Sequence record: PV357172.2
Source: a phage
Strand: one strand, 5' to 3'
Length of the DNA: 64,000 nt
The position numbers and the translations under genes are program-made. This document shows, in pieces, positions 19,151 to 47,572 of the stretch (the first letter of the stretch is position 1; every line of letters begins with the position of its first letter). The notes beneath the pieces were generated by a model. It was given only the letters and a program-made list of their open reading frames with translations, ran no database searches and had not been told where the DNA came from.

Positions 19151-20977
19151 TTACTTAAGATTTAAGTGTTTTACTCTACCAAGTACTTCTTTTTGTTTCC
19201 CAGAATTGAAAGGCCTACTGCCCGGGGATCCCAGGTACCCGCAAACCCTACGTGTAACCTCTATTTCTTCAGATCCACAACTCGGACATACAAACCCACG
19301 TTCAGAGGCAACAGATTCACCCATATACCCACAGTTGAAGCACTCATCAATTGGTATATTAACACCAATATAATGACTACATTCTAGTCCCTTATCTACT
19401 ACGTATTCAAGAGCTTTATGGAACTTTTTCATTTGTGGTAGTTCCACAAACGATATATTACCACCATTAGCTATTTTGGTGAAATGAGCTTCATACTCAA
19501 ATTTAGTATCCGGAGCTACCTTCTCCCTTACGTCCAAATGATGACTATTAGTGAGATAGCCTTTATCTGTTAGCCAAGAATACTCAGGGAACCTACGTTC
19601 CAGTAGTTTATTAAAGCGATTACATAGAGACTCACTAGGAGTAGCATACAAGCTAAACCCAAGATTAGTCTCATTAGCTTTAACTTCGCAACGATTTTTT
19701 AGGTGAGTAAGAACTTCCTCTGTAAATTCAATACAGTCCCTATGAGTCTGCGGTAAACTAAACATTATTTGGCACATCTCATAGACCCCAATATACCCAA
19801 GAGATACAGAAGATCTACCCTCAAAAATTGGCCATACATACTCTTCCCTATCTAAACGCACACCAAAACCACCGTGCATATAAAGAATAGGGGCTTGTTT
19901 AGCCTTCACTTTCTTAAGTCTATCCAAGAAAAAATCATGAGCTTCAAAAGCCTCATCCACATATTTGTCCAGAATATCCCAGAAATCTTCAAAAACCCCA
20001 TCTGCCTCAGCAGCAACCATAGGTAGATTAATAGACACTACACCTAAATTATTGCGCCCTGCAATTTCTCCGGAGGGGATAGCAGATAAAAAGCTACGAC
20101 AACCCATAGGGGCTTTAAAATCACCAGTAACAGCTATAACTTTCTCATAGCTTAAATAGTCTGGGTACATACGGGTAGCAGAACACTCAAGTGCTAGCTG
20201 TTTTATATCATAGTTAGGATCGCCTGGATTTTTATTTAACCCTTCTTTAACTGAGAATACTAGTTTAGGGAAGATAGGGGTTGACTCGGCAGCACCTAAA
20301 CCTTTAATACGATTTTGGAGGATGGCTTTCTGAATCATCCTTTCCTCCCACTCCTGACCTAATCCAAAGCCAAGCGTAACAAAAGGGGTCTGCCCGTTAG
20401 AGTTAAATAATGAATTAGTTTCATACTCTAGAGCTTGGAATGCATCATAACACTCTTTTTCAGTAAGCTCAGTAGCATACACAGCAGCTTTTCTTTCATC
20501 CTTGAGCCAACGTAGCCCACGACCCAGATGTTTATTGTAAGACTTTCTGACATACGGGGCTAGAACCTCGTCGATACGATCAATAGAGGTACCACCATAC
20601 TGAGCACCAGATACTTGGGCAATAATCTGAGCAGTGATTGCACATGCAGTAGTTATGGATTTAGGAGTTTCAATATTTGCATTACCGATTTTAGTACCAT
20701 TCTTCAGCATGCCCCCCAGATCTACTAAACAACAGTTGGTGTACCCTTGTGCTCTGTAGTCCATGTCATGAATGTGTATTTTACCTAGATTATGCGCGTC
20801 TAACAGGTGTTTAGGTAATTCTTGCGATACTAAATACTTGTTAATTTCCCCAGCTAATAAGTCCCTTTGAGTATGGAACATCTCACTAGGCTTATTAGCA
20901 TTATTATGTTGTAAGTCTTTATCCGCAGTTAGAGTGAGCAGACCTTTGCAATTTTCAATTAATTCATTCTCTGTCAT
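19151..20977 (-). CDS. nrdD: anaerobic ribonucleoside-triphosphate reductase (class III)
   Basis: 608-aa ORF; C-terminal glycyl radical motif RVCGYLGS; Cys cluster CFNCGY...CPSCG. Confidence 0.85.
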   Translation of the reverse strand: MTENELIENCKGLLTLTADKDLQHNNANKPSEMFHTQRDLLAGEINKYLVSQELPKHLLDAHNLGKIHIHDMDYRAQGYTNCCLVDLGGMLKNGTKIGNANIETPKSITTACAITAQIIAQVSGAQYGGTSIDRIDEVLAPYVRKSYNKHLGRGLRWLKDERKAAVYATELTEKECYDAFQALEYETNSLFNSNGQTPFVTLGFGLGQEWEERMIQKAILQNRIKGLGAAESTPIFPKLVFSVKEGLNKNPGDPNYDIKQLALECSATRMYPDYLSYEKVIAVTGDFKAPMGCRSFLSAIPSGEIAGRNNLGVVSINLPMVAAEADGVFEDFWDILDKYVDEAFEAHDFFLDRLKKVKAKQAPILYMHGGFGVRLDREEYVWPIFEGRSSVSLGYIGVYEMCQIMFSLPQTHRDCIEFTEEVLTHLKNRCEVKANETNLGFSLYATPSESLCNRFNKLLERRFPEYSWLTDKGYLTNSHHLDVREKVAPDTKFEYEAHFTKIANGGNISFVELPQMKKFHKALEYVVDKGLECSHYIGVNIPIDECFNCGYMGESVASERGFVCPSCGSEEIEVTRRVCGYLGSPGSRPFNSGKQKEVLGRVKHLNLK

Positions 20978-21635
20978 TGATTATTTCCTCGATAAACCTT
21001 GCTACTATTTCTGGCTCAATACTAAAAAATTCTGTAGCACCATCAAAATCTTTGTACTGACAATTATATTCCTTAAACTGTAAATGGGCCTCTCTTTCAA
21101 TACGCATAGCTTTTGATCTATCTGAAAAGCTATATTCCTTAAATATTTTTAAATCATGTATGTTAGAAGAAGTTTTAATATCTCTGAGTCTATCTTTAGT
21201 TCTGCTAGACACCCCTATTTTGGTTCCCACACTACTTATTAAAATATATACGTTAGTAGGATAATTATCCTTCTCTAATAAACATATAGGACAACCAGAA
21301 TTATGATTTCTAACACTATCAAGTGTAGACTCCCATCTATGATTATTCTCACAGCTGAACATAATTTTACTCTTAGAATTGATGTATTTACCTTCCATCT
21401 TTATTCCACGAGCAGCTAAGGATTCATTTACCTCTTTAAGATCTAAAGTACGACTAGCACAATAAGGGCAACCTCTCCCACCTTTTACATTATCTACTCT
21501 AGCCTCCCAGATATGTCCATTAGAGCACTTAAATACAGCATTGGATTTAGCTGATATATACGTGCTTAGCATAATTATTCCTCTGGGAGCAAGTGTTAAG
21601 TTCACATCTTCTGTAGTTATTTTCTTTCTTACCAT
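20964..21635 (-). CDS. T5orf172/GIY-YIG-like domain protein with tandem zinc-ribbon repeats
   Basis: Two N-terminal repeats (FKCSNGHIWEARVDNVKGGRGCPYC / FSCENNHRWESTLDSVRNHNSGCPIC); C-terminal VYILISSVGTKIGVS...R...E GIY-YIG-like core. Confidence 0.5.
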   Translation of the reverse strand: MVRKKITTEDVNLTLAPRGIIMLSTYISAKSNAVFKCSNGHIWEARVDNVKGGRGCPYCASRTLDLKEVNESLAARGIKMEGKYINSKSKIMFSCENNHRWESTLDSVRNHNSGCPICLLEKDNYPTNVYILISSVGTKIGVSSRTKDRLRDIKTSSNIHDLKIFKEYSFSDRSKAMRIEREAHLQFKEYNCQYKDFDGATEFFSIEPEIVARFIEEIINDRE

Positions 21636-21953
21636 TAAATTCTCCTTAATTCACATATTATACACAATTCCACCCCATAAGTCAACTACATTTTTCTAAT
21701 ACTATTTGACTTTTGATTTTTATCAATTTTTATTGATGCTATACAGCATAATATCTTTACATATAAATAAATGATTATCTAGTATCATATTTTTACCTTT
21801 ATAAGCAAGTAAATTTTTTACTTAAAAGCAATATCATAGGTTTATTTAAAATTATACTTGCTTTTTGCTGTAAACCTTGTTATAATATATTTGTAAGTTG
21901 ATAAACAAGATCTCTTTGTTGATCCTCTGTTAGAAGCGAAGTACACTATAGGA
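21636..21953. promoter_or_regulatory. divergent promoter region between leftward and rightward gene blocks
   Basis: AT-rich 318 bp; plus-strand TTGCTT...TGTTATAAT upstream of 21963 and reverse-complement TTGCT/TATAAT elements for the minus strand. Confidence 0.55.
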
Positions 21954-21962
21954 GTGTTATTT

Positions 21963-22715
21963 ATGGGAAAAGCACGTCAAAAAAGAGAGAACCGCAATGG
22001 TTCAAGAAAGCGTGGCAACAAATATGAGAATAACGTAATTCAGGCTGATTTTTCTAATGATTACGCTAACCCAGTTGCTAAATCCCTAGTAGGTAAAAAC
22101 CGCGAGCAAAAATCATATATCAATATGATCAAGAACAACACAGTGACTGTGGGTATCGGTGAGCCAGGTACTGGTAAAACCTTTATTCCGTCCGTTCTTG
22201 CAGCTCAGGAACTCGTAGACATTCACTCAGATATTGAGCAAGTGATTCTCGTACGTCCTAATGAACCTCTAGGTAAGTCTCTTGGTATGCTTCCTGGTGA
22301 TCTGGCGGAAAAGCTAGAGCCTTGGTTAGAGCCAATAGCTGATGGTATGAAATGGGCCATCGGCGATCATGCCTATAAGGGATATGTCGAACGTCAGAAA
22401 ATTAAATTTTTGGCTGTCGAACATGCTCGTGGCAGAACTTTCAACAACTCCTATGTAATTGTCGATGAAGCTCAGAATATTTCCGTTGAGGCAATGATTT
22501 GTCTCCTAACTCGTGTAGGGCAAGACTGCCGTTTAATTATCTGCGGAGATATAGCTCAGAAAGACATTAAAGGTGACTCAGGTCTAGCACTCCTTATGGA
22601 AGTCTATGAGAAATATGAAAATGCCCCATTCTCAATGATCGAATTGATTGATAACGTTCGTTCTGTTGAGTCTAAAGCATTCTATGATATTTTTAAAGAT
22701 ATGGGAAAGGTGTAA
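21963..22715 (+). CDS. phoH: PhoH-like ATPase
   Basis: Walker A GEPGTGKTF; ATG at 21963 after GGAGTG. Confidence 0.7.
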   Translation: MGKARQKRENRNGSRKRGNKYENNVIQADFSNDYANPVAKSLVGKNREQKSYINMIKNNTVTVGIGEPGTGKTFIPSVLAAQELVDIHSDIEQVILVRPNEPLGKSLGMLPGDLAEKLEPWLEPIADGMKWAIGDHAYKGYVERQKIKFLAVEHARGRTFNNSYVIVDEAQNISVEAMICLLTRVGQDCRLIICGDIAQKDIKGDSGLALLMEVYEKYENAPFSMIELIDNVRSVESKAFYDIFKDMGKV

Positions 22716-22716
22716 T

Positions 22717-22959: not shown

Positions 22960-23080
22960 TATACAGGGCCTGGGTATGAAAATACTCGGGCCTTTTCTAT
23001 CAGAAAATTTTATTTGCCTAATGACAGATAATAAAGTAGAATATTCCTTAAATCCTGATAACTATAAAAAGGAAAGCCAA

Positions 23081-25411
23081 ATGAGCCATCGCATTGAAAA
23101 AGTAATTAAACGTGACGGTACTGTAGAAGACTTTGCTCCTGAAAAACTCAATGGTTGGGCAGAGTATGGTTGCAAAACAGTTGATGTAAGTTGGTCAGCC
23201 ATTACTATGGCTGCTCAAAAAACTCTGCCTAAGGGGGTTGTAGATTCCGACACTCTGATGGACGCATTAATTAAAGCTGCTGAAAGTCTTATCAAAGATA
23301 ACCCAGCATACGATGTGCCAGCAAAGGAATTACGTCTTGCGCAAATGCGTAAACGCCTTTACGACTCTTTCGAACCACCTTCTCTACGCTTCTTCCATGA
23401 CCATATGGTTAGCGTAGGTGCATGGGAAGACATGAGTGCATGGATTACCGATGAGCAGTTCGAAGCTCTGAATCAGGTTATCGACCATGATCGTGACCGT
23501 CTTTTTACTAGTGGTGGACTGAAACAGTTCTTTGATAAGTATTCCCGTCGTAACATAGCCACTGGTGAAATTTATGAAACTCCGCAGTTTGCCTACATGG
23601 GTATGGCAATGGCGATGTTATCTCAACCTAACTGGACAATTCTAGATGCAATCGACCTCTACAACGCAATGTCACTCCACAAAATCAACGTTCCTACGCC
23701 GCCACTGGTTGGTCTGCGCTCTAGTGACCGTGGATTTGCTAGTTGCTGCCTCGTGGATTCCACTGACACGTTGGATTCAATCGACACCGCCGAGCACATC
23801 GTCTTCAAAATGGTCGCAGCCAGAGCGGGAATCGGGTATCATCTTGAAAGCCGATCAATTGCTGATCCGGTGCGAAATGGGGCATTCCCGCATTCCGGAA
23901 AACTGCCATATTATCGACACATTGACCGCTCAGTAAAGGCCAATACTCAGCAAACTCGTGGTGGTTCTGCCACAGTGTCTTATCCGTACTTCGACCCTGA
24001 AATCATTCAATTGATGCAGGTTAAGCAACAACGTGCTACAGATGAGAATAAAATCGATAAGATGGATTATTCTCTGAGCTTCAACAATCTTTTGTTAAAA
24101 CGTTATCTGAAAAATGAAGATATTACGCTAATGTCATACTTCTATGCTCCAGAAGTTCATGAAGCGTTTTATAGTGATGACGAGGCTAAATTTGAAGAAA
24201 TCTATGTGGCAGCGGAGAAACGTGTGGCATCTCTTACAAAGATCGACCATGAAGGAAAAACAGTTCCAGCAGCTCCTAAAGTCTCTGCAAAAGAAATCCT
24301 AGATACTTGGCTACGTATCCGAATGGAAACAGGACGTATGTATGCCCACCACATCGGGGAATCTAATCGTCACGGTAACTTCCTTGATCCGATCCGTATG
24401 ACAAACCTTTGTGTTGAAATTACTCAGCCTACGCGCCCGTTCCACCACATTACAGAGTTGTATAAGACAAAAGAACAACTTGATCAAATGAAGCCGGAGG
24501 ATATTGGTGAAGTATCTCTGTGTAACTTAGGTGGTGTTGTACTTGGACGCATGGAATCTCTGGCTGAGTGGGAAAAAACTTGCTACATCCTCCTGAAATT
24601 CGTTGATACAATTATTGAAATTCAGGATTACCCATTCCCAACTATGGAATATACGGCTAAGAAACGTCGTAATGTTGGTATTGGTCTGATGAACGCAGCA
24701 GGTGCAATGGCAGCAGAAGGTCTGGCTTACGAAGGTATTGAAGCACGTAACTGGATTCATCGTGAAGCTGAAAAATTGTCCTACTTCCTGCATAAAGCCT
24801 CTGTACGTCTAGCCAAAGAGCAAGGTGCATGTGAGTGGTTTGATCGTACTAAACCATCTAAAGGAATTCTGGTAATCGACACGTACAAGAAAACTGTTGA
24901 TGAACTGGTATCCGTAGGTCTAGAAATGGATTGGGAGTCTCTGCGTGCAGATATTCTGAAATACGGTATGCGTAACTCTGTTCTGACTGCGCAGATGCCG
25001 GGAGAAAGTTCTTCCGTTCTATTAGGGGTTACTAACTCTATTGAACCACCTCGTAAGATTGTATCTATCAAGGGTAGTGCAGTGAATAAAGTAATTGCAA
25101 TTGCTCCAGGTGCAACCGACTGGGAAACGTTAATGAGCTATAAACTGGCTTATGATATTGATCGCACTGAGTGGATCAAGTGGAATGCCGTTTACCAAAA
25201 ATTCTTGAGTCAGTCATCAAGTTTCCAGATGTATTATGATTACTCTAAATTCGAGAATGAAATCATCCCTGGCCCAGTAGTAATTCGTGATTTTATGACT
25301 GCGGTTAAGTATGGCATAAAAACCTGGTATTATGCTAACTTTAACACTGCGAATGGTGGAGGAGCTGGTGAGGAAGCAGCGGGTTGTGCTTCTGGTGGTT
25401 GCCAGTTATAA
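23081..25411 (+). CDS. nrdA: ribonucleotide reductase class Ia large subunit
   Basis: ATP-cone-like N-terminus; catalytic region NLCVEIT; ATG at 23081 after AAAAGGAAAG. Confidence 0.85.
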   Translation: MSHRIEKVIKRDGTVEDFAPEKLNGWAEYGCKTVDVSWSAITMAAQKTLPKGVVDSDTLMDALIKAAESLIKDNPAYDVPAKELRLAQMRKRLYDSFEPPSLRFFHDHMVSVGAWEDMSAWITDEQFEALNQVIDHDRDRLFTSGGLKQFFDKYSRRNIATGEIYETPQFAYMGMAMAMLSQPNWTILDAIDLYNAMSLHKINVPTPPLVGLRSSDRGFASCCLVDSTDTLDSIDTAEHIVFKMVAARAGIGYHLESRSIADPVRNGAFPHSGKLPYYRHIDRSVKANTQQTRGGSATVSYPYFDPEIIQLMQVKQQRATDENKIDKMDYSLSFNNLLLKRYLKNEDITLMSYFYAPEVHEAFYSDDEAKFEEIYVAAEKRVASLTKIDHEGKTVPAAPKVSAKEILDTWLRIRMETGRMYAHHIGESNRHGNFLDPIRMTNLCVEITQPTRPFHHITELYKTKEQLDQMKPEDIGEVSLCNLGGVVLGRMESLAEWEKTCYILLKFVDTIIEIQDYPFPTMEYTAKKRRNVGIGLMNAAGAMAAEGLAYEGIEARNWIHREAEKLSYFLHKASVRLAKEQGACEWFDRTKPSKGILVIDTYKKTVDELVSVGLEMDWESLRADILKYGMRNSVLTAQMPGESSSVLLGVTNSIEPPRKIVSIKGSAVNKVIAIAPGATDWETLMSYKLAYDIDRTEWIKWNAVYQKFLSQSSSFQMYYDYSKFENEIIPGPVVIRDFMTAVKYGIKTWYYANFNTANGGGAGEEAAGCASGGCQL

Positions 25412-25492: not shown

Positions 25493-25990
25493 ATGAAATT
25501 AACACAGAGTAGATTAAAAGAGCTAATCTCCTATGACCCTGAAACTGGCGAATTTACCTGGCTCCCAAGAAAAACTTTAGCAAAGCATTTATGGAATGCT
25601 AAAGCAGGAACCTACGATAAATTAGGGTATCTTCGTATAAAAGTTGAAGGAGTTCAATATTTAGCTCATCGCCTAGCCTTCTTGTATATGACTGGAGAAA
25701 TACCGGAAGGAAAAATCGACCATAAAGATACTAATCCGTCTAATTGTGCCTGGGATAATCTCCGTGAAGCCACGAGTTCTCAAAATTCTATGAACTCGTG
25801 TGCAAGATCGGATAACCAGCTTGGAATGAAAAATATTCGTGTAAAAGGCACTTCATTTCAGGTTAGGATAGGCAAAGACGGCAAATCTTATACAAAAACT
25901 TTTAAAACCCTAGAAGAAGCTATAGAATGGAGAGACACCAAACTACTAGAACTTCATGGGGACTTTGCAAACAACGGAGAAGCTAAATGA
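25493..25990 (+). CDS. HNH homing endonuclease (between nrdA and nrdB)
   Basis: HNH motif GEIPEGKIDHKDTNPSNCAWDNL; own promoter-like element upstream. Confidence 0.7.
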   Translation: MKLTQSRLKELISYDPETGEFTWLPRKTLAKHLWNAKAGTYDKLGYLRIKVEGVQYLAHRLAFLYMTGEIPEGKIDHKDTNPSNCAWDNLREATSSQNSMNSCARSDNQLGMKNIRVKGTSFQVRIGKDGKSYTKTFKTLEEAIEWRDTKLLELHGDFANNGEAK

Positions 25991-27132
25991 CTACTTTACT
26001 TAACTTAGAATGGGATCATACTAACGCTGACCTTTTCCTGGGAGATTCTCTTGGTATCGCAGACTATGTTCGTGTTGCTCATCCCGAGCTAGAACGACTC
26101 GCCCTACTGCAGAGGAGCCAGTTTTGGACTGAGACAGAAATCAGTTTAGAAGCTGATAAAAAGCAGTGGGGTAATCTCCCGCGTGAAATTCAGGAAATTA
26201 CACTCCTGAACTTAGCATGGCAAACTCAAACTGATTCCTTTATCAGTCGTGCTCCTGAAGCAGCTATTATGCCACTTGTAAGTCGCCCAGAATTGGAAGG
26301 TATGCTCAAGCAGTGGAGCTACTTCGAAGATCTGCATAGCCGTGCATATAGTAATATTATTCGTAATGTGCTGACTGATCCAGCAGAATTTATTGATTCT
26401 GTAACCAAAAACCAGGAAGCATTCGCACGCATCGCTGATTCTGTTGAGCTATTTGATGAGCTATATCAGTTAGGTCAGTATTTCCTAGCAGTACGTGATC
26501 ATCGTGGCGATAATACTTACCCAGAAACCGAGTTTCCTGAAGTTAAACGTGAAACTCAGGCTAAGCTATTAGACGCTTACTTTGCAATCTACGGTCTGGA
26601 AGCAATGCAGTTTTACGCATCCTTTGCATGTACCTTTGCATTAGCGGAGAACGATATTCTGCAAGGTATTGCTAAAAACCTGCAATTAATCGCTAAAGAT
26701 GAAGCTCTGCACACTCAGATGTCCAAAGCAATCATCCAGATTATGTTTCAGCAATTTGACAAAGATCTGGTAGATGAAGCAGTGGCTAAAGCACCAGCAC
26801 AGCTCCTGAAAACTCTGAAAACTGAAATTGAATGGGGTCATTTCATTTTCAAAGGTCGTAGTCTGATTGGTTTAAATGCAGAACTTCTAGAAGAATATCT
26901 GTATTTTGTGGGACGTAATGCATTTATGCACATCGGTGTAGAATGGCCTAGTCATTTACCAGTAATCACCAAAAACCCTATTCCGTGGATCATGAACTGG
27001 TTGGATACCACTTCTTTACAGCCTGCTCCACAAGAAATCCAGATTGGTGCAGCATATCGTGTAGGTCAAGTCACCGAAACCTCTACTGATACTCTGAAAG
27101 ATCTGGGTAATGAATTTGGAGATTTCTTATGA
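25987..27132 (+). CDS. nrdB: ribonucleotide reductase class Ia small subunit
   Basis: 381-aa ORF following nrdA; helical ferritin-like sequence with conserved E/H positions. Confidence 0.75.
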   Translation: MTTLLNLEWDHTNADLFLGDSLGIADYVRVAHPELERLALLQRSQFWTETEISLEADKKQWGNLPREIQEITLLNLAWQTQTDSFISRAPEAAIMPLVSRPELEGMLKQWSYFEDLHSRAYSNIIRNVLTDPAEFIDSVTKNQEAFARIADSVELFDELYQLGQYFLAVRDHRGDNTYPETEFPEVKRETQAKLLDAYFAIYGLEAMQFYASFACTFALAENDILQGIAKNLQLIAKDEALHTQMSKAIIQIMFQQFDKDLVDEAVAKAPAQLLKTLKTEIEWGHFIFKGRSLIGLNAELLEEYLYFVGRNAFMHIGVEWPSHLPVITKNPIPWIMNWLDTTSLQPAPQEIQIGAAYRVGQVTETSTDTLKDLGNEFGDFL

Positions 27133-40754: not shown

Positions 40755-40882
40755 CTGATACAGCACTGAGCAAGTTCTTTAAAATTTGACTTGCTCAGTA
40801 CCTTAAAACTTGGTATAATAGTTATCTAATTTGGAAACATATTTAAAAGTATTCAAATACTAGTTTAAACACTTTTAAATGT

Positions 40883-40966: not shown

Positions 40967-41068
40967 AATTCTGTGTAGAGTTAAGTAAACCGGTAGCCAA
41001 CCAGCTATCATTGCTGACATCGAATTCAGCCACAGATACCATTTTCATTAATAACTGAGGAAATAGAT

Positions 41069-41254: not shown

Positions 41255-41257
41255 ATT

Positions 41258-41839
41258 ATGCACGGAATATCCTTACCAATTCCAGGGTTTGAGGAGTACT
41301 TAGTAAGTTTGGATGGGTTAGTATTTAGTATCAAATCAAACAAAATACTAACCCCAATAACCAGTAATTACGGATACTTATCTATACGTCTCCATAAAAA
41401 TGGTCAACAGAGAAATACCGGTGTACATAGGATTTTAGCATGTGCATTTAAGAAATTACCAAGTCTAGACTCTGAACTAGAAGTTGACCATATTAACACA
41501 GACATTACTTATTGGGGTCTTAATAACTTACAAGTGCTCACAAAAGAGCAGCATCTAGAAAAGACTTTAAAAGATAAAGGATTTAGTAAACTAAACCATG
41601 ATAATTGTTGTAAGGATTGTGGTAAAGCTATTTCTTTAAAAGCTGAAAAATGTCAGGAGTGCTCTTCACATAAACCAAAAGATATCTCTATAACTAAAGA
41701 AATAATCGAGGTTACAGTAAGAGAGCTAGGCTGGTCAGGTGCAGGGAGAAAGTTAAGTTATTCAGATAATGGGTTGCGTAAAAGATACACTTCTTTAGGA
41801 GGCAATCCTAAAGAACTTAAAAAGTTAAAGGTACTATAG
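41258..41839 (+). CDS. HNH endonuclease with zinc finger and C-terminal HTH
   Basis: HNH region ELEVDHINTDITYWGLNNLQVLTKEQH; CKDCG...CQEC zinc finger; paralog of 43929-44513. Confidence 0.65.
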   Translation: MHGISLPIPGFEEYLVSLDGLVFSIKSNKILTPITSNYGYLSIRLHKNGQQRNTGVHRILACAFKKLPSLDSELEVDHINTDITYWGLNNLQVLTKEQHLEKTLKDKGFSKLNHDNCCKDCGKAISLKAEKCQECSSHKPKDISITKEIIEVTVRELGWSGAGRKLSYSDNGLRKRYTSLGGNPKELKKLKVL

Positions 41840-41901
41840 TCTAACGGTTAGGATACTCCCCTGTCACGGGAGAGGTAGGGTTTCGATTACCCTTAGTACC
41901 G
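41830..41901 (+). tRNA. tRNA-Asp (anticodon GTC)
   Basis: Perfect acceptor GGTACTA/TAGTACC, anticodon arm CTCCC-CTGTCAC-GGGAG, T-arm AGGGT-TTCGATT-ACCCT, CCA; 5' end overlaps HNH stop codon. Confidence 0.7.
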
Positions 41902-41910
41902 CCAAATTAT

Positions 41911-41984
41911 ACATCCATAGCTCAATTGGTTAGAGCTACCGCCTCTTAAGCGGTAGGTTCTAGGTTCAAGTCCTAGTGGGTGTA
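41911..41984 (+). tRNA. tRNA-Lys (anticodon CTT)
   Basis: Acceptor ACATCCA/TGGGTGT, D-stem GCTC/GAGC, anticodon arm ACCGC-CTCTTAA-GCGGT, T-arm CTAGG-TTCAAGT-CCTAG, CCA. Confidence 0.7.
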
Positions 41985-41987
41985 CCA

Positions 41988-42200
41988 AACATCAGAGCAG
42001 CGTGATGTACTGCAAAGACCCAAAGTCCGGGGTGGACTTCTTGATTCAAAGGAGCAGGCACTAATTATCATTCTAGCGTGGTGGAGAGGGGACACCAGCT
42101 TGCCGAGGGTAGAAGCTCGTTCGATTCGAGTGAAAGAATGGTTCTCGTAAATCCGCACAAGTGATAGCAGGTTCAAGTCCTGCCTAGATTGACTTATTAT
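41988..42200 (+). ncRNA. structured noncoding segment with two orphan T-arm-like hairpins (pseudo-tRNAs or small RNA)
   Basis: GCTCG-TTCGATT-CGAGT and GCAGG-TTCAAGT-CCTGC T-arm-like elements with no pairing acceptor stems found; no credible ORF. Confidence 0.3.
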
Positions 42201-42271
42201 GCGTTCGTAGTTAAAAGGTATAATTTTTGGTTGCCAACCAGAAGTTGAGGGTTCGATTCCCTCCGACCGCA
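42201..42271 (+). tRNA. tRNA-Gly (anticodon GCC)
   Basis: Acceptor GCGTTCG/CGACCGC (one mismatch), anticodon arm TTTGG-TTGCCAA-CCAGA, T-arm GAGGG-TTCGATT-CCCTC, CCA. Confidence 0.65.
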
Positions 42272-42587
42272 CCAAATTTAGGTTTCTGCTTCCTAGAGAA
42301 CGGACTCCTAGATAAACAAGGCGATGAGTTTCCGGCCGGTTCTAGTCGCTGAAAATCCTCCCGACCAGGTAGGTGTAAGTAAATGAAAGTTTACTTATTG
42401 AGTAGGTTCCGATAGACCGGCGGGTCTATTCTGGCATTTAAGAGAGGTCTCGCAAACTTCTTTGTCAGCCGTGGGGTTGGTAGCCTCCAGGTGGCCTACA
42501 CAATAAGTAAATTTATTAAAAATTCATTTGCTATTCTGCTTAATTCTCTGTATAATATATTTTATAAAGTGAGTTAACAAAAATTAA

Positions 42588-42660
42588 CAGTGCGTAGCGC
42601 AGTTGGTAGCGTGGGAGCCTTGGGTGCTTCGGGTCGCAGGTTCGAGTCCTGCCGCACTGA
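42588..42660 (+). tRNA. tRNA-Pro (anticodon TGG)
   Basis: Perfect acceptor CAGTGCG/CGCACTG, anticodon arm GGAGC-CTTGGGT-GCTTC, T-arm GCAGG-TTCGAGT-CCTGC, CCA; directly after promoter module. Confidence 0.7.
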
Positions 42661-42669
42661 CCAAACAAT

Positions 42670-42744
42670 TGCGGGTTAGATCTCTGGTAGAGATCGCTAG
42701 TCTCATAAGCTAGAAAGAGGTAGGTTCGATTCCTGCACCCGCTT
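42670..42744 (+). tRNA. tRNA with CAT anticodon (Met/fMet or Ile2)
   Basis: Anticodon loop CTCATAA, T-arm GTAGG-TTCGATT-CCTGC, CCA; position 1-72 appears unpaired (U-U) in my fold. Confidence 0.6.
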
Positions 42745-42767
42745 CCATTTTAATAGAGGATTTCGAA

Positions 42768-42931
42768 ATGAAAGTATTTCGATTAGTAGTAAGTGACAAA
42801 CGGTTAGGTAAGAATACATCAAAATCCTTACTTGCTCATTATGGTAAAAATTGGGATGAAGTAATGGCAGAGTTTAATACTAATCACCCTTACTTGAAAG
42901 TTCACTCTATTAAGGAAGTTTATGCTTATTA
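42768..42931 (+). CDS. small protein (about 54 aa)
   Basis: Below track threshold; ATG at 42768 after AGAGGA; overlaps start of next gene. Confidence 0.35.
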
Positions 42932-43395
42932 ACAGGGTGCTTCAAGCTCTAGATCTTCCAGAGCTCTTTACTATTACCGACCCCTTAATACATCGGTATA
43001 TGGAAAAGTATAATGAAATCTCTGGTAAAAAAGGGAAACTAAAATCCTCAGAATTTAAGTTCTGTTATAGAATGGCAGCATTAAACCTCTTAAAGTACAA
43101 GAGGGAGCATAAAATCCCTATAACAGAAGGATTTGTCTATGTAATAGGTAGTCCAGCATGGCCTGGACTATATAAGATAGGTATGACAGTAGATGTGAAT
43201 GAAAGACTGTCTAGTTATCAAACATATTCGCCTTATCGTGATTACAAGTTATACCATTTCAGATTCTCCTCGGACAAGAGAAGAACTGAAAAAGCATTAC
43301 ATAACCTTCTGAAGGACTACAAAGTATCAGGAGAATGGTTTGAAGTACCTCTGTTAGACGCCTTCAAACTATTAGTAGAAAATTTGGATTGCTAA
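42922..43395 (+). CDS. T5orf172/GIY-YIG-like domain protein
   Basis: Motif GFVYVIGSPAWPGLYKIGMT...R...E; AAGGAAG RBS. Confidence 0.5.
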   Translation: MLINRVLQALDLPELFTITDPLIHRYMEKYNEISGKKGKLKSSEFKFCYRMAALNLLKYKREHKIPITEGFVYVIGSPAWPGLYKIGMTVDVNERLSSYQTYSPYRDYKLYHFRFSSDKRRTEKALHNLLKDYKVSGEWFEVPLLDAFKLLVENLDC

Positions 43396-43460
43396 CTCAA
43401 CTGGATAAGAGTACCGGACCTTTAATCCGTCAGTTCTGGGTTCGAATCCCAGGCAATCCA
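43386..43460 (+). tRNA. tRNA-Lys (anticodon TTT)
   Basis: Perfect acceptor GGATTGC/GCAATCC, anticodon loop CCTTTAA, T-arm CTGGG-TTCGAAT-CCCAG, CCA; 5' end overlaps last codons of upstream CDS. Confidence 0.65.
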
Positions 43461-43748
43461 CCAATTTCAAGAAAAACTCAGTTGCTTGATGCTTAATTTC
43501 TTGTTATAATATTTATATAAATTGATGAGGAGAAATCCTCATCATAGTTCACTAAGGTATTAGCTCGACCTAGGACTGGCTGCCAAAAAGCACGATCCCT
43601 ACGATTTGGGAGAAGTTCTAGATTAGTCCACTAGATTCAGCGGCAACTGAATAGTGTATCGGTTTTGCGAGATGACGCGGTTCCTTCCGCTCGAAGCGAA
43701 GGTGCTGTAGTTACGCCGAGCTAATAGCCTTAGTAAACTAAGGAATTT

Positions 43749-43819
43749 GGGGATATAGTTTAATGGTAGAACATCTGCTTTGCACGCAGAAGACGAGGGT
43801 TCAACTCCCTCTTTCTCCA
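43749..43819 (+). tRNA. tRNA-Ala (anticodon TGC)
   Basis: Acceptor GGGGATA/TTTCTCC (one mismatch), anticodon arm TCTGC-TTTGCAC-GCAGA, T-arm GAGGG-TTCAACT-CCCTC, CCA. Confidence 0.65.
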
Positions 43820-43827
43820 CCAAATTT

Positions 43828-43909
43828 GGGGCTATGCTGGAACTGGTAGACAATACGGCCTTAGATTCCGTAGCTTAAATGCGTGGGAGTTCGAGTCTCC
43901 CTAGCCCCA
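43828..43909 (+). tRNA. tRNA-Leu (anticodon TAG), long variable arm
   Basis: Perfect acceptor GGGGCTA/TAGCCCC, anticodon loop CTTAGAT, T-arm GGGAG-TTCGAGT-CTCCC, CCA. Confidence 0.65.
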
Positions 43910-43928
43910 CCAACTTATAGGGTAATGT

Positions 43929-44513
43929 ATGCAGTTTGTACCAATAAAAGATGCACCAGGGTATTTAGTAAATGAAACAGGGGATGTGTTATCTACATTT
44001 ACTAATAAAATCTTATCAAGATATATAGTTGATGGGTACCCTGCTGTAAAATTACAGATAAATGGTAAGCAAACTTCGGTACTTATACACCGAATTATTT
44101 CTCATGTATTTGGGGACTTATATAATCTATTTGACCCTGAATTAGAAGTAGATCACAAGGATAGAGATAGGCTGAATCTATCTAAAGATAATCTTCAAGT
44201 TTTATCAAAAATAGAACATCAGAAGAAAACTAATAAAGATAATGGATGGTCTGATAGTAGAGTACCTTGCCCCTTATGTGGAAATCTAATGCTTCAGAGA
44301 TCAGTAACATGTACAAATTGTAAGCCAAAACCTACAGGAAAGTTAATAAAACCAGAATTGTCCTTAGAAGACATAACTGAAAAGGTTTTATTAATGGGGT
44401 GGGTTAAGGCAGCTAAAGATCTAGAAGTATCAGAGTCCACTTTACGTAGACGATATACTAAACTAACCGGATTAAGCCCGAAAGTATTAACAGAACAACG
44501 GAAAAGCAAATAG
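43929..44513 (+). CDS. HNH endonuclease with zinc finger and C-terminal HTH
   Basis: HNH region ELEVDHKDRDRLNLSKDNLQVL; CPLCG...CTNC zinc finger; paralog of 41258-41839. Confidence 0.65.
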   Translation: MQFVPIKDAPGYLVNETGDVLSTFTNKILSRYIVDGYPAVKLQINGKQTSVLIHRIISHVFGDLYNLFDPELEVDHKDRDRLNLSKDNLQVLSKIEHQKKTNKDNGWSDSRVPCPLCGNLMLQRSVTCTNCKPKPTGKLIKPELSLEDITEKVLLMGWVKAAKDLEVSESTLRRRYTKLTGLSPKVLTEQRKSK

Positions 44514-44590
44514 ACTGGTGACTAAACCCGATTGGAAATCGGTTGAGTGGTAGCAATACCGCCTTATGGGTTCAACTCCCATCTTTTCCG
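44500..44590 (+). tRNA. tRNA-Ser (anticodon GGA), long variable arm
   Basis: Perfect acceptor GGAAAAG/CTTTTCC, anticodon loop TTGGAAA, T-arm ATGGG-TTCAACT-CCCAT, CCA; 5' end lies inside last codons of HNH gene. Confidence 0.6.
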
Positions 44591-44605
44591 CCAAACAATT
44601 TATAT

Positions 44606-44697
44606 GGTAGGTCAATCCAATGGCTGGCGCTGGACTCCGACTTGAAATCGGTTGATCGTAGTGATACGGTGTAAGGGTTCGATCCCCTTACCTACCT
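44606..44697 (+). tRNA. tRNA-Ser (anticodon TGA), long variable arm
   Basis: Perfect acceptor GGTAGGT/ACCTACC, anticodon loop CTTGAAA, T-arm AAGGG-TTCGATC-CCCTT, CCA. Confidence 0.65.
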
Positions 44698-44955
44698 CCA
44701 AATCTTGAAGTATGCCGGAATCGGTAGACGGGGCTGCCTAAAAGGTTTATAGGGAACATCCACTCCCTGCAACATACCTCATAAAGCGGCTGAGATAAAT
44801 GGTCTATCTCGTGAAGGTTCAAGTCCTTCTGCTTCTTGATACATCTATGGCTCAAAGTGTAACGGTGCTATTTGATGCTCTTGGTAAGACTTCCCCGACA
44901 TGCGTTCGGGAGTAAGCTGCTAAGACTAGAGTAGAAGAGTTTCTGAGAGCCGCCA

Positions 44956-45070
44956 CAATTGAAAATTCGTACTCGTCTTGAGCTGCGTGCAATAGGAGAT
45001 AACTTGATTAGTATTCTAGAACATGCTAATTGAGGATGGTTTCGCTAACCCTGCGAGTTTTCAATTGTGG
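44956..45070. repeat. 14-bp perfect inverted repeat GCCACAATTGAAAA / TTTTCAATTGTGGC separated by about 88 nt
   Basis: Read directly; distal arm overlaps the 5' acceptor of tRNA-His. Confidence 0.5.
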
Positions 45071-45140
45071 CTATATCATAATTGGTTAATGATCCTGATT
45101 GTGAATCAGGCCTATGTGGATTCGAATTCCACTAGCCACC
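45067..45140 (+). tRNA. tRNA-His (anticodon GTG)
   Basis: Perfect acceptor GTGGCTA/TAGCCAC, anticodon arm CCTGA-TTGTGAA-TCAGG, T-arm GTGGA-TTCGAAT-TCCAC, C discriminator, CCA. Confidence 0.65.
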
Positions 45141-45168
45141 CCAAATTAACTTAAATAGGAAATAAAAT

Positions 45169-45369
45169 ATGGCTGATTTCTGCAAGCAATGCTCCCTTGA
45201 TATGTGGGGCAGAGATACTGGTGACTTATCTGGTCTGATTACAGAAGCCGAAGTCAAAGAAGGTTATAGTGCAGTTGTGATTTGTGAAGGCTGCGGTGTT
45301 ATCCGTGTAGACCACACCGGTAAGCGTTTGGAAGAACCAGTTCCAATTGCGCAAGTTCCTGTAGAATAA
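45169..45369 (+). CDS. hypothetical protein (66 aa)
   Basis: ORF track; Cys pairs CKQC...CEGC suggest a zinc ribbon. Confidence 0.45.
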   Translation: MADFCKQCSLDMWGRDTGDLSGLITEAEVKEGYSAVVICEGCGVIRVDHTGKRLEEPVPIAQVPVE

Positions 45370-45377
45370 AAAATTAT

Positions 45378-45450
45378 TGGAGTGTAGCTCAACTGGCAGA
45401 GCGACGGTTTCTGACACCGTAGGTTTCTAGTTCGATCCTAGACATTCCAG
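45378..45450 (+). tRNA. tRNA-Gln (anticodon CTG)
   Basis: Acceptor TGGAGTG/CATTCCA, D-stem GCTC/GAGC, anticodon arm ACGGT-TTCTGAC-ACCGT, T-arm TCTAG-TTCGATC-CTAGA, CCA. Confidence 0.65.
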
Positions 45451-45459
45451 CCAAACAAT

Positions 45460-45534
45460 TGGGGATTAGCTTAGCTTGGCCTAAAGCTTCGGCCTTTGAA
45501 GTCGAGATCATTGGTTCAAATCCAATATCCCCTG
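45460..45534 (+). tRNA. tRNA-Gln (anticodon TTG)
   Basis: Anticodon arm TCGGC-CTTTGAA-GTCGA, T-arm ATTGG-TTCAAAT-CCAAT, CCA; first acceptor pair mismatched in my fold. Confidence 0.6.
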
Positions 45535-45545
45535 CCAAACAATAA

Positions 45546-45618
45546 GCGATTAAGCACACGGGTTGTGCCGCAGGCCTTCCAAGCCCCGCTGAGTAGGGTT
45601 CGATTCCCTCTAGCCGCT
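45546..45618 (+). tRNA. tRNA, anticodon uncertain (possibly TCC, Gly)
   Basis: T-arm with TTCGATT loop, acceptor with one mismatch, CCA; anticodon stem weak in my fold. Confidence 0.4.
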
Positions 45619-45638
45619 CCAACTTTAAGGAAACATTT

Positions 45639-45860
45639 ATGCACGTTTTTGAGTTTCGTGATAAAAGTAACAATAAACGAGTTATTGTTATTGGAGAAAC
45701 ATACCTAGCATACGAACAAACTGATGGCTCTGTTATCTTGAATGATGAGAAAGCAAATTTTAGCTTTTATCCAGAAGAACCTTATGAAGAGTTTCGTACT
45801 AAGTTTCTTTTACCAGACTGGCTAGCAGTAGCCGAGCAACGAGAATCCGAAGATGGCTGA
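45639..45860 (+). CDS. hypothetical protein (73 aa)
   Basis: ORF track; AAGGAAACATTT RBS. Confidence 0.45.
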   Translation: MHVFEFRDKSNNKRVIVIGETYLAYEQTDGSVILNDEKANFSFYPEEPYEEFRTKFLLPDWLAVAEQRESEDG

Positions 45861-46014
45861 TAACCTAAAATTAAGGGTTGACAAACAAAAGAAATACGTT
45901 GAGGTTGAATTAGGCGAAGAACGCTTAAAGCTAACTTTCGAGTTTCTTCAGCAGTTGGCTATGACAGTCATGACTGATAAGTCTCCTGTTATTGAAAAAG
46001 AAATCCCGTTGAAA
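45853..46014 (+). CDS. small protein (about 53 aa)
   Basis: Below track threshold; ATG overlaps upstream stop (ATGGCTGA). Confidence 0.35.
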
Positions 46015-46025
46015 TAGGAAGCAAC

Positions 46026-46418
46026 ATGGAGTTTACTTGTTTAAATTGCGGAATCACAAAACCTAAAAGTAGGGGTTCCGCAGGTAAGTATTGTGGTGCT
46101 GCTTGTCAGCAGGAGTACCAGACAAAGCAAAAAGTATTAAAGTGGCTGGCAGGTGAAGAACCTGGTTATACTGGTAAAGCTGCACAATTAAAACCTTTTG
46201 TTAGGAAGTGGCTGTGGGATACTCGTGGTACTGCTTGTGAAGTATGTGGTTGGGATGGGAAACATCCAATTGACGGAGCAGTTTTAACTGAGGTAGATCA
46301 TATAGATGGAGATGCAACTAACTGTTCTCCAGAAAATCTAAAGATTCTCTGCCCTAACTGTCACTCTATGACACCTACGCATAGGGCCAGAAATAGAGTT
46401 TCAACAAGACAACGATAG
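46026..46418 (+). CDS. small HNH endonuclease (130 aa)
   Basis: HNH/zinc motifs TEVDHIDGDATNCSPENLKILCPNCH. Confidence 0.6.
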   Translation: MEFTCLNCGITKPKSRGSAGKYCGAACQQEYQTKQKVLKWLAGEEPGYTGKAAQLKPFVRKWLWDTRGTACEVCGWDGKHPIDGAVLTEVDHIDGDATNCSPENLKILCPNCHSMTPTHRARNRVSTRQR

Positions 46419-46489
46419 CTCTTAAAGCATTGCTGGCGATGCAACGGTCTTGTAAACCGTGGAACCGGGTTCGATTCCTGGTGGGAGCA
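46418..46489 (+). tRNA. tRNA-Thr (anticodon TGT)
   Basis: Acceptor GCTCTTA/TGGGAGC, D-stem GCAT/ATGC, anticodon arm ACGGT-CTTGTAA-ACCGT, T-arm CCGGG-TTCGATT-CCTGG, CCA; first base is last base of HNH stop codon. Confidence 0.7.
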
Positions 46490-46567
46490 CCAAAATTAAA
46501 AAATTCATTTGCCTTCTCTCTTATTTCTTGTTATAATATTTATATAAATTAATGAGAGGGAAACCAA

Positions 46568-46861
46568 ATGAAACGTTATCTTTCTGTCGTGTTCCAAACT
46601 GGTGGTCAACGCTACACTTATGAATTTCCTGAGTCCTGGAAAATTAAAGAAGGTGATCAAGTTGTTGTATTAACACCTCGTGAAGGCTTCAAAGTAGTAA
46701 CGGTTAAACAAGTATTTCCAAAAGATCACGAACCATCTAAGGCTATTCAGTACAAGATGATTCATGGTCTGGTACGAAAAGTACCTAGAACAGAAGTCGA
46801 AGTAGATAAAACTGGGGAAGCTAAATACCAGTATACCTCTTACTTAGATGAAATGATGTAA
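46568..46861 (+). CDS. hypothetical protein (97 aa)
   Basis: ORF track; promoter module and GAGAGGGAAACC RBS upstream. Confidence 0.5.
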   Translation: MKRYLSVVFQTGGQRYTYEFPESWKIKEGDQVVVLTPREGFKVVTVKQVFPKDHEPSKAIQYKMIHGLVRKVPRTEVEVDKTGEAKYQYTSYLDEMM

Positions 46862-46862
46862 T

Positions 46863-46935
46863 GCTCTGATAGTTCAACAGGTTAGAACAGACGACCGATA
46901 ATCGTCAAATCTTGGTTCGATCCCAAGTCGGAGTA
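46863..46935 (+). tRNA. tRNA-Ile (anticodon GAT)
   Basis: Acceptor GCTCTGA/TCGGAGT, D-stem GTTC/GAAC, anticodon arm GACGA-CCGATAA-TCGTC, T-arm CTTGG-TTCGATC-CCAAG, CCA. Confidence 0.7.
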
Positions 46936-46944
46936 CCAAATTAT

Positions 46945-47017
46945 AGTTAGTTGGCAGAGTGGTTATGCACCTCCTTCATACGGAGCGACTACAGTGGTTC
47001 AAATCCACTACTAACTA
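46945..47017 (+). tRNA. tRNA with CAT anticodon (Met or Ile2)
   Basis: Perfect acceptor AGTTAGT/ACTAACT, anticodon loop TTCATAC, T-arm AGTGG-TTCAAAT-CCACT, CCA. Confidence 0.6.
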
Positions 47018-47023
47018 CCAAAC

Positions 47024-47062
47024 AGAGGATCTGGTCATTGTACCAGATCTCTGTGTTTATTA
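47024..47062 (+). terminator. rho-independent terminator closing the tRNA cluster
   Basis: Hairpin GATCTGGT-CATTGT-ACCAGATC followed by TCTGTGTTTATT. Confidence 0.55.
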
Positions 47063-47203
47063 AACTGAATGGGACTATCAATCCACAAGCCGGACTACGA
47101 GCGATTATCGGGTATTCACTTAATAAACAGCCTGCCCCCCAGTTTTTATCTTGCTTCTGGGTTAACAAAAAGCTGAGCCAAATTCTAATATCAGGGAGAT
47201 CTA

Positions 47204-47572
47204 ATGAAAGCATATCAAAATCTTAAATCCGGCGTAATTAACCTTGTTCATGAAAATCAGATCATTCAGCTATACTCTAAAGACGGTGAACTTAAACAGA
47301 AAGTTCTAGTTGAAGATCTAGAAGGTATCACACCTCACTTTGACCCTGAAGCCTTTCGCATTGTAGATGTGGAAGTGGTTCCCCAAGTCGAGGGTGGTCA
47401 GCACCTAAATGTCAATGTGTTAAGCCGTGATCAGCTTTTAGATGCACAGAAACATCCTGAAAAATATCCTCAGTTGACCATCCGTGTCTCTGGCTATGCT
47501 GTTCGATTTAACGCATTGACGCGTGAACAACAGAACGACGTTATTAGTCGTACATTTACTCAGGCGATATAA
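47204..47572 (+). CDS. autonomous glycyl radical cofactor (GrcA/YfiD-like)
   Basis: C-terminal glycyl radical signature [29 protein letters not shown]; size 122 aa. Confidence 0.65.

What the first reader, a model, noticed from the sequence alone, without database searches (positions are those of the whole stretch)
19151..47572. Glycyl-radical toolkit: anaerobic RNR NrdD plus a separate GrcA-like cofactor
NrdD (19151-20977) carries the RVCGY glycyl radical motif, and a 122-aa ORF (47204-47572) ends in an RVSGYAV glycyl radical domain like the autonomous spare-part protein GrcA. This suggests the phage protects or repairs host or phage glycyl-radical enzymes under oxygen stress, beyond the class Ia NrdAB it also encodes.
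Basis: partly seen in the sequence, partly recalled or inferred. Interest (0 to 1): 0.45.

Follow-up and report, generated by a model that had tools for sequence, protein, structure and literature searches.

The report
Phage anaerobic reductase plus PFL spare part
This T5-like phage carries an oxygen-sensitive anaerobic ribonucleotide reductase and a small "spare-part" protein of the kind already shown in phage T4 to repair the host's oxygen-damaged pyruvate formate-lyase. Both genes are real, but both are already known and annotated in hundreds of related phages.

Summary
Both observations are confirmed. NrdD lies at 19151-20977 on the minus strand (608 aa, RVCGY, Gly580). It passes the curated NrdD thresholds and keeps every catalytic residue I checked. 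The 122-aa ORF at 47204-47572 (+) has a PFL-type glycyl-radical domain (RVSGYAV, Gly97). It is about 79% identical over its last 58 residues to E. coli GrcA and 78% to PflB. It aligns full-length (about 51% identity) with T4 Vs.6/Y06I, which has been shown experimentally to rescue oxygen-cleaved PFL.

The window is a T5-like phage (Markadamsvirinae). [quoted passage not shown] It is under strong purifying selection (dN/dS 0.04-0.17).

The small protein shows no similarity to NrdD, so it should serve host PFL, not the phage reductase. Neither the window nor a complete relative genome encodes a radical-SAM activase, so both proteins must rely on host NrdG and PflA.

One added point: in Rak2-like jumbo phages, Aeromonas phage 65 and a KVP40-like Vibrio phage, the grcA-like gene sits inside or directly beside RNR operons. 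This hints at a PFL-formate-NrdD coupling.

Verdict: already known, low interest.

The parts
19151..20977 (-). nrdD: class III (anaerobic) ribonucleoside-triphosphate reductase, 608 aa, without an ATP-cone. The radical Gly580 codon is at 19240..19238.
   Evidence: Pfam NRDD 1.4e-157. NCBIfam equivalogs above cutoff. PDB T4 NrdD 1h78 at 1.6e-177. It is 53% identical to E. coli NrdD. C82, M291, C293, N310, the Zn cysteines 546/549/564/567 and G580 are all conserved.
47204..47572 (+). grcA-like gene (the T5-like counterpart of T4 vs.6/Y06I): a 122-aa autonomous glycyl-radical protein. The Gly97 codon is at 47492..47494.
   Evidence: Pfam Gly_radical 4.5e-18. PDB 6owr 2.4e-29 and PFL residues 698-758 at 1.7e-26. 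phrog_1209 matches full length at 4.6e-47. About 51% identical to T4 vs.6 over the full length. Foldseek top hits are YfiD and PFL. dN/dS is 0.04-0.17.
47194..47199 (+). Shine-Dalgarno-like GGGAGA, 4 nt upstream of the grcA-like ATG
   Evidence: Read directly from the sequence.
   Evidence: Pfam Ribonuc_red_lgC 2.7e-117.
25987..27132 (+). nrdB: class Ia RNR small subunit (context)
   Evidence: Pfam Ribonuc_red_sm 5.1e-36.

Best explanation
These are two independent, already known auxiliary genes of a T5-like (Markadamsvirinae) phage. (1) NrdD is a T4/E. coli-type class III ribonucleotide reductase. By inference it uses formate as reductant and makes dNTPs for phage DNA synthesis when oxygen is absent. 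The phage encodes no NrdG, so the glycyl radical on Gly580 must be installed by the host activase NrdG. (2) The 122-aa protein is a phage-type autonomous glycyl radical cofactor. Host PflA would put a radical on Gly97. The C-terminal domain would then dock into host pyruvate formate-lyase whose own Gly734 loop has been cut by oxygen, and restore acetyl-CoA and formate production. T5 shuts off host gene expression and degrades host DNA, so the host cannot induce its own grcA after infection. A phage-encoded copy would fill that gap. What is shown here: gene identity, conservation of catalytic residues, absence of a phage activase, and purifying selection. What is inferred: activation by host enzymes, rescue of PFL, use of formate, and the host shut-off rationale.
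For: Identity of both proteins. Full-length homology of the small protein to T4 vs.6/Y06I, which together with E. coli YfiD is one of the two biochemically validated PFL spare parts and is activated by PFL-AE (PMC8683613). The last 58 residues are 79% identical to E. coli GrcA and 78% to PflB. All 33 invariant family columns are kept. Both halves are under purifying selection across 27 T5-like alleles, including T5 itself. No NrdG or PflA homolog, and no radical-SAM-like CxxxCxxC ORF, in the window or in the whole genome of the relative CitS1; positive controls worked. Dwivedi et al. 2013 note that many phages carry nrdD with nrdAB but no nrdG, and describe the nrdD-phoH-nrdAB arrangement for T5, SPC35 and EPS7 (PMC3653736). 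The 30 residues around the NrdD radical glycine match E. coli NrdD at 24/30 positions, against 18/30 for T4, which brings its own NrdG (hand count on the alignment). Formate is the reductant of the E. coli, L. lactis and T4 NrdD enzymes (PMC4493059).
Against: No experiment exists for any T5-like protein. The score against the NCBIfam GrcA equivalog (TIGR04365) is 118 bits, below the 170-bit cutoff, because only the C-terminal half matches. The N-terminal half is only 17-39% identical to homologs outside the T5-like group, both other phages and bacteria. In E. coli YfiD that half matters for binding cleaved PFL and for activation. The validated T4 protein has a C-terminal half that is 97.7% nucleotide-identical to E. 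coli grcA. The experiment therefore tested what is essentially the host's radical domain, not a diverged phage-type one. Whether host NrdG can activate a NrdD that is 53% identical to its own has not been tested.
Confidence: 0.75

Rival explanations
1. The small protein is a spare glycyl-radical domain for the phage's own NrdD. It would replace the NrdD C-terminus after oxygen cleavage and be activated by NrdG.
For: In jumbo phages the grcA-like gene lies between nrdD and nrdG (PHA46, K64-1, Serratia BF, a 104-kb Logan contig). In Aeromonas phage 65 it follows nrdA-nrdB-nrdD-nrdG. PMC8683613 speculates that spare parts may exist for other glycyl radical enzymes.
Against: BLASTP finds no similarity to NrdD (E=4.4). 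The radical loop and its flanks ([28 protein letters not shown]) are PFL-type and invariant, even in the copies embedded in an operon. The NrdD glycine loop (RVCGYLGSP..RPFN) sits behind a Zn ribbon that the small protein lacks.
Confidence: 0.04
2. The protein is a takeover tool rather than a repair tool. It would titrate host PflA or occupy PFL, shutting down or redirecting pyruvate flux.
For: It needs the same activase and the same docking site as the host proteins (inference). Many early phage genes are host-takeover factors.
Against: The radical glycine and all catalytically relevant flanking residues are strictly conserved and under purifying selection. A decoy would not need that. The T4 homolog restores PFL activity rather than inhibiting it.
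Confidence: 0.06
3. The small ORF is a non-functional captured fragment of the host pflB or grcA 3' end.
For: The domain equals the last ~60 residues of PflB. T4 shows that host-phage recombination can occur at this gene.
Against: It is an intact ORF with a Shine-Dalgarno sequence. It is conserved in hundreds of T5-like genomes. dN/dS is 0.04-0.17 in both halves at dS up to 0.76. Third-position identity to the E. coli genes is only about 50%, so the capture is old. The N-terminal half is shared with other phage lineages.
Confidence: 0.02

Closest known systems
Bacteriophage T4 Vs.6 / Y06I (autonomous glycyl radical cofactor; Wagner et al. 2001 BBRC 285:456)
   Same: A stand-alone ~120-aa protein. 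The first five residues (MKAYQ) are identical. It aligns full-length at about 51% identity. Both belong to phrog_1209. It has the same RVSGYAV radical loop and comes from a virulent enterobacterial phage that also encodes NrdD and NrdAB.
   Different: T4's last 58 codons are 97.7% nucleotide-identical to E. coli grcA, a recent host-derived segment. The window's gene is only 71% identical there and carries phage-typical residues (DAQ, VISRTFT) shared with jumbo-phage copies. The N-terminal halves are only 38% identical. T4 also encodes its own NrdG; the T5-like phage encodes no activase.
E. coli GrcA/YfiD (PDB 6OWR)
   Same: The C-terminal glycyl-radical domain is 79% identical. Gly97 corresponds to Gly102. 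Foldseek gives TM 0.76 over the structured YfiD domain.
   Different: The N-terminal half is about 20-30% identical. The protein falls below the NCBIfam GrcA equivalog cutoff. AlphaFold2 predicts a confident beta-sheet N-terminal half, whereas residues 1-60 of YfiD are reported disordered in solution.
T4 NrdD (PDB 1H78) and E. coli NrdD
   Same: Class III RNR fold, radical Gly580 (the same residue number as in T4), thiyl Cys, Met-x-Cys, Zn ribbon. Like T4, it has no ATP-cone. Identity is about 50% to T4 and 53% to E. coli.
   Different: There is no adjacent or distant nrdG, unlike T4 and E. coli. There is no intron. This is a minority allele, only 60% identical to the usual Markadamsvirinae NrdD, and it is linked to a T5orf172 endonuclease-like ORF.

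Membership tests
Autonomous glycyl radical cofactor (GrcA/YfiD/Y06I) | Small stand-alone protein (~120-130 aa), not the C-terminus of a full-length glycyl radical enzyme | tested here: met
   122-aa ORF bounded by stops. The upstream neighbour is a tRNA-Met gene, and no PFL core lies nearby.
Autonomous glycyl radical cofactor (GrcA/YfiD/Y06I) | C-terminal PFL-type glycyl-radical domain with an RVSGYAV loop, homologous to PflB residues ~698-759 | tested here: met
   Pfam PF01228 at 4.5e-18. PDB PFL 698-758 at 1.7e-26 and GrcA at 2.4e-29. All 33 invariant columns are kept.
Autonomous glycyl radical cofactor (GrcA/YfiD/Y06I) | Score above the curated NCBIfam equivalog threshold (TIGR04365, 170 bits) | tested here: not met
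   118.4 bits, with only residues 54-121 matching. This is a membership test for the bacterial equivalog. The phage-type family phrog_1209 matches full length.
Autonomous glycyl radical cofactor (GrcA/YfiD/Y06I) | Full-length homology to an experimentally validated member | tested here: met
   About 51% identity over 100% of the length to T4 vs.6/Y06I. Validation of Y06I is cited in PMC8683613.
Autonomous glycyl radical cofactor (GrcA/YfiD/Y06I) | Radical installed by PFL-activating enzyme; restores activity to O2-cleaved PFL | not testable with these tools
   This needs EPR and enzyme assays.
Class III ribonucleotide reductase (NrdD) | NrdD catalytic core plus C-terminal glycyl-radical domain, above curated thresholds | tested here: met
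   NF006732 at 794 bits against a cutoff of 657; TIGR02487 at 536 against 326; Pfam NRDD and Gly_radical.
Class III ribonucleotide reductase (NrdD) | Conserved thiyl Cys, second active-site Cys, Met-x-Cys, four Zn-ribbon Cys, radical Gly | tested here: met
   C82, M291, C293, C546/549/564/567 and G580 align with E. coli C175, M382, C384, C644/647/662/665 and G681. The residue roles come from my own knowledge of the E. coli and T4 literature.
Class III ribonucleotide reductase (NrdD) | Cognate radical-SAM activase NrdG encoded with it | tested here: not met
   No tblastn hit at E<0.1 for E. coli or T4 NrdG or for PflA. No radical-SAM-like CxxxCxxC ORF in the window or in the complete CitS1 genome (only small Cys-rich/Zn-ribbon-like ORFs carry the motif). 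Controls were positive. This does not exclude membership, because host NrdG can supply the function. nrdD without nrdG is common in phages (PMC3653736).
Class III ribonucleotide reductase (NrdD) | Formate as reductant (the E. coli/T4/L. lactis type) | not testable with these tools
   Inferred from 50-53% identity and the shared active-site pattern with the formate-using enzymes.

The most novel reading that the evidence does not exclude
The phage GrcA-like protein may be functionally part of the phage's deoxynucleotide-supply module. By keeping host PFL alive after host shut-off, it would keep formate flowing. Formate is the obligatory reductant of NrdD, so anaerobic phage DNA synthesis would depend on a PFL-formate-NrdD relay of glycyl-radical enzymes. 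Gene neighbourhoods in at least three or four other phage lineages support a link. The arrangements are nrdD-grcA-nrdG in Rak2-like jumbo phages; nrdA-nrdB-nrdD-nrdG-vs.6 in Aeromonas phage 65; nrdA-nrdB-grcA in a KVP40-like Vibrio phage; and nrdD..nrdG..grcA within 4 kb on a 330-kb metagenomic contig. I found no paper in the searchable library that makes this connection for phages. In the window itself the genes are unlinked.
Probability: 0.35. Interest if true: 0.45.

Novelty: already known. Interest (0 to 1): 0.2.

Why it matters
For this window it matters little. Both genes are standard, already annotated parts of T5-like genomes, and the spare-part function was shown for the T4 homolog in 2001. 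The finding is useful mainly as a correct annotation, since records variously label the small protein 'pyruvate formate-lyase', 'acetyltransferase' or 'ribonucleotide reductase subunit'. If the RNR/formate coupling suggested by gene order in other phages is real, it would explain why virulent phages of facultative anaerobes keep a PFL repair protein. It would also predict oxygen-transition phenotypes relevant to phage replication in the gut.

Tried and rejected
(1) I tested whether the 53-aa ORF directly downstream (47572-47733) is the counterpart of T4 vs.5, which would indicate a transferred two-gene cassette. There is no similarity.

(2) I tested whether the small protein resembles the phage NrdD C-terminus. 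It does not.

(3) I searched for any phage activase using tblastn with E. coli NrdG, T4 NrdG and E. coli PflA, plus a CxxxCxxC scan. I covered the window and the whole CitS1 genome and found nothing. The only CxxxCxxC ORFs are small Cys-rich or Zn-ribbon-like ORFs.

(4) I looked for host FNR boxes as a sign of oxygen-responsive control. The only perfect TTGAT-N4-ATCAA in the window lies upstream of the endonuclease-nrdD unit (21713-21726; 0.12 expected per window). It is absent from CitS1 and from phage R2, whose NrdD is 99.5% identical. It also sits about 70 nt upstream of a near-consensus sigma-70 promoter. I do not rely on it. There is no box upstream of the grcA-like gene.

(5) A literature search for T5-like plus formate-lyase returned no papers. 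The Mulliez 1995 paper (PMC41046) is not held, so I cite it only through PMC4493059.

(6) Foldseek found no significant PDB match for the predicted N-terminal beta domain.
Full report
**Observation.** Both ORFs are present exactly where stated.
- The 608-aa ORF at 19151..20977 is on the minus strand and contains RVCGY with the glycine at residue 580.
- It matches Pfam NRDD (E=1.4e-157) and Gly_radical (7.9e-14). It exceeds the curated cut-offs of two NCBIfam NrdD equivalogs: 794 against 657 bits, and 536 against 326 bits.
- The 122-aa ORF at 47204..47572 (+) contains RVSGYAV with the glycine at residue 97.
- It matches Pfam Gly_radical (4.5e-18, residues 62-103), the solved structure of E. coli YfiD/GrcA (6owr, 2.4e-29, residues 50-121) and E. 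coli PFL residues 698-758 (1.7e-26).
- NrdA (22976..25411) and NrdB (25987..27132) are also there.

The 28-kb span is not a unit, however. It is two genes on opposite strands separated by 26 kb of other early genes and 19 tRNA genes.

**What the window is.** The DNA is about 94% identical to Citrobacter phage CitS1 and other Epseptimavirus/Markadamsvirinae (T5-like, Demerecviridae) genomes.
- The small protein is 99% identical to proteins of other T5-like phages. A 121,750-bp IMG/VR contig that matches the T5 genome in length (identity not verified) carries it with 8 amino-acid differences.
- tblastn finds relatives in 1,584-1,590 phage records.
- Some records already call it 'autonomous glycyl radical cofactor (GrcA)'. 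Others mislabel it 'pyruvate formate-lyase', 'acetyltransferase-like' or 'ribonucleotide reductase subunit'.

**The small protein.**
- It aligns over its whole length with T4 Vs.6 (UniProt name Y06I) at about 51% identity, starting with the same MKAYQ. It matches phrog_1209 end to end.
- Y06I and E. coli YfiD are the two spare-part proteins shown biochemically to receive a glycyl radical from PFL-activating enzyme and to restore activity to oxygen-cleaved PFL (Wagner et al. 2001, as described in PMC8683613).
- The last 58 residues are 79% identical to E. coli GrcA and 78% to PflB. All 33 columns that are invariant in a 55-sequence alignment of phage and bacterial homologs are kept.
- The N-terminal half is much more divergent: 17-39% identity to homologs outside the T5-like group. 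This is why the protein scores 118 bits against the bacterial GrcA equivalog TIGR04365, whose cut-off is 170.
- MAFFT nevertheless aligns the N-terminal halves of phage and bacterial proteins to a common pattern.
- An AlphaFold2 model (mean pLDDT 78.5) predicts a confident beta-sheet for residues 1-54 and the helix / Gly-hairpin / helix of the radical domain. Foldseek's best PDB matches are YfiD and PFL, with nothing significant for the N-terminal part.
- Against 27 distinct T5-like alleles, dN/dS is 0.04-0.17. Both halves are constrained, at dS up to 0.76. Third-position identity to the E. coli genes is only about 50%.

It is therefore an old, functional phage gene, not a recent host fragment.

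**NrdD.**
- It is 53% identical to E. coli NrdD over 596 residues and lacks the N-terminal ATP-cone, like T4 NrdD. It is about 50% identical to T4 NrdD.
- The residues that align with E. coli C175, M382, C384, the four Zn-ribbon cysteines and G681 are all conserved.
- The E. coli, L. lactis and T4 enzymes use formate as reductant (PMC4493059; PMC4390871). By homology I infer the same here.

**No activase.**
- tblastn with E. coli NrdG, T4 NrdG and E. coli PflA finds nothing (E<0.1) in the window or in the complete genome of CitS1. No radical-SAM-like ORF carries CxxxCxxC; the only motif-bearing ORFs are small Cys-rich or Zn-ribbon-like ones.
- The same queries hit the E. coli control locus, and PflA cross-detects NrdG at 7e-8.
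- Dwivedi et al. 2013 already noted that many phages carry nrdD with nrdAB but no nrdG. They also described the nrdD-phoH-nrdAB arrangement for T5, SPC35 and EPS7 (PMC3653736).
- Both glycyl-radical proteins must therefore be activated by host enzymes (inference).
- Consistent with this, the 30 residues around the radical glycine of the T5-like NrdD match E. coli NrdD at 24 positions. T4 NrdD, which comes with its own NrdG, matches at 18 (counted by hand on the alignment; T4 locus).

**Interpretation.** 'Host or phage glycyl-radical enzymes' is not supported for the phage enzyme. The small protein has no detectable similarity to NrdD, and its radical loop is strictly PFL-type. The most likely mechanism is the one established for YfiD/Y06I, acting on host PflB. 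A plausible reason for a phage copy is that T5 shuts off host expression, so the host cannot induce its own grcA or replace damaged PFL. That reasoning rests on general knowledge of T5 biology.

**An added observation.** In other phage lineages the grcA-like gene sits in or beside RNR operons:

| Phage or contig | Arrangement |
|---|---|
| Salmonella jumbo phage PHA46 | nrdD / grcA-like / nrdG, 12-nt gap and 4-nt overlap |
| Klebsiella phage K64-1 | nrdD / grcA-like / DUF4326 / nrdG |
| Serratia phage BF | nrdD / 3 ORFs / grcA-like / 1 ORF / nrdG |
| 104-kb Logan contig | nrdD / grcA-like / nrdG |
| 330-kb ENA contig | nrdD..nrdG..grcA-like within 4 kb |
| Aeromonas phage 65 | nrdA-nrdB-nrdD-nrdG-vs.6, contiguous |
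| Vibrio phage D479 | nrdA-nrdB-grcA-like |

- In a survey of 80 IMG/VR loci with 10-kb flanks, the 29 T5-like loci and most T4-like loci showed no nrd gene nearby. The linkage is therefore lineage-specific and is not seen in this window.
- PFL makes formate and class III RNR consumes it, a connection already noted for cells (PMC4390871). The simplest reading is that the spare part protects the reductant supply of NrdD.
- I found no paper in the searchable library that says this for phages. I treat it as a hypothesis (probability about 0.35), not as a result.

**A caveat on the experimental precedent.** The last 58 codons of T4 vs.6 are 97.7% identical in nucleotides to E. coli K-12 grcA, with 96.6% identity at third positions. 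The validated T4 protein therefore carries essentially the host's radical domain. The diverged phage-type domain found here and in jumbo phages has never been tested.

**Verdict.** The features are real, correctly recognised and already known. The small protein should be annotated as a phage-type autonomous glycyl radical cofactor (Vs.6/Y06I family) and the large one as NrdD dependent on a host activase. Interest is low (0.2). The RNR-linkage lead deserves a modest follow-up.

Noticed in passing
window 19151-21635 (minus strand): The window's NrdD is only 60% identical in amino acids to the NrdD of CitS1, although the flanking DNA is about 94% identical. This allele is found at 95% identity or more in only 51 phage records, against 414 records with the usual allele at 60-80%. 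It comes with a 223-aa T5orf172/DUF4379 (treble-clef Zn finger) endonuclease-like ORF (20964-21635), whose stop overlaps the nrdD start by 14 nt. This looks like an allele swap linked to a homing endonuclease.
   Followed up: partly
L003 4187-4360 (T4 vs.6) versus L005 (E. coli grcA): The last 58 codons of T4 vs.6 are 97.7% nucleotide-identical to E. coli K-12 grcA (96.6% at third positions), while the N-terminal half is phage-type. This implies recent recombination between T4 and the host gene. It also means the 2001 biochemical validation tested a host-like radical domain.
   Followed up: partly
L011 3183-5830; L012 3185-6163; L010 2116-6287; L016 4185-6830; L065 about 6300-10234; L013 4656-8372: In Rak2-like jumbo phages, Aeromonas phage 65 and a KVP40-like Vibrio phage, grcA-like genes lie inside or directly next to RNR operons (nrdD-grcA-nrdG; nrdABDG-vs.6; nrdAB-grcA). 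This is not so in T5-like or most T4-like genomes.
   Followed up: partly
window 21713-21726: The only perfect FNR-type box (TTGATTTTTATCAA) in the 64-kb window lies in the intergenic region upstream of the endonuclease-nrdD unit (0.12 expected per window). It is about 70 nt upstream of the start site predicted from an 11/12 sigma-70 promoter (-35 at 21685-21680, -10 at 21662-21657, minus strand). It is not conserved in CitS1 or in phage R2, whose NrdD is 99.5% identical, so it may be chance.
   Followed up: partly
window 25493-25990 and 28572-29150 (+): Two free-standing HNH_3 endonuclease ORFs: one between nrdA and nrdB, and one after thyA. Together with the T5orf172 ORF, they show that the nucleotide-metabolism block is a hotspot for mobile endonucleases.
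   Followed up: no
window 47204-47365 (residues 1-54 of the small protein): AlphaFold2 predicts the N-terminal half as a confident four-to-five-strand beta-sheet (pLDDT about 86-91). The corresponding half of E. coli YfiD is reported as disordered in solution. This half is under purifying selection (dN/dS 0.06-0.18) and has no PDB fold match.
   Followed up: partly
window 47654-47968 (+): A 104-aa ORF two genes downstream of the grcA-like gene has a Cys-rich CICSCWMC motif. It matches phrog_4499 (unknown function), has no Pfam hit, and is conserved in CitS1.
   Followed up: no
window 27129-27662 (+): The ORF syntenic with the gene annotated as dihydrofolate reductase in CitS1 gives no Pfam hit at E<=0.001. 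It is either a very divergent DHFR or an annotation carried over by synteny.
   Followed up: no
window 36053-47020 (+): A cluster of 19 tRNA genes interspersed with small ORFs. The grcA-like gene starts 184 nt after the last tRNA-Met, following a terminator-like hairpin at 47027-47050.
   Followed up: no
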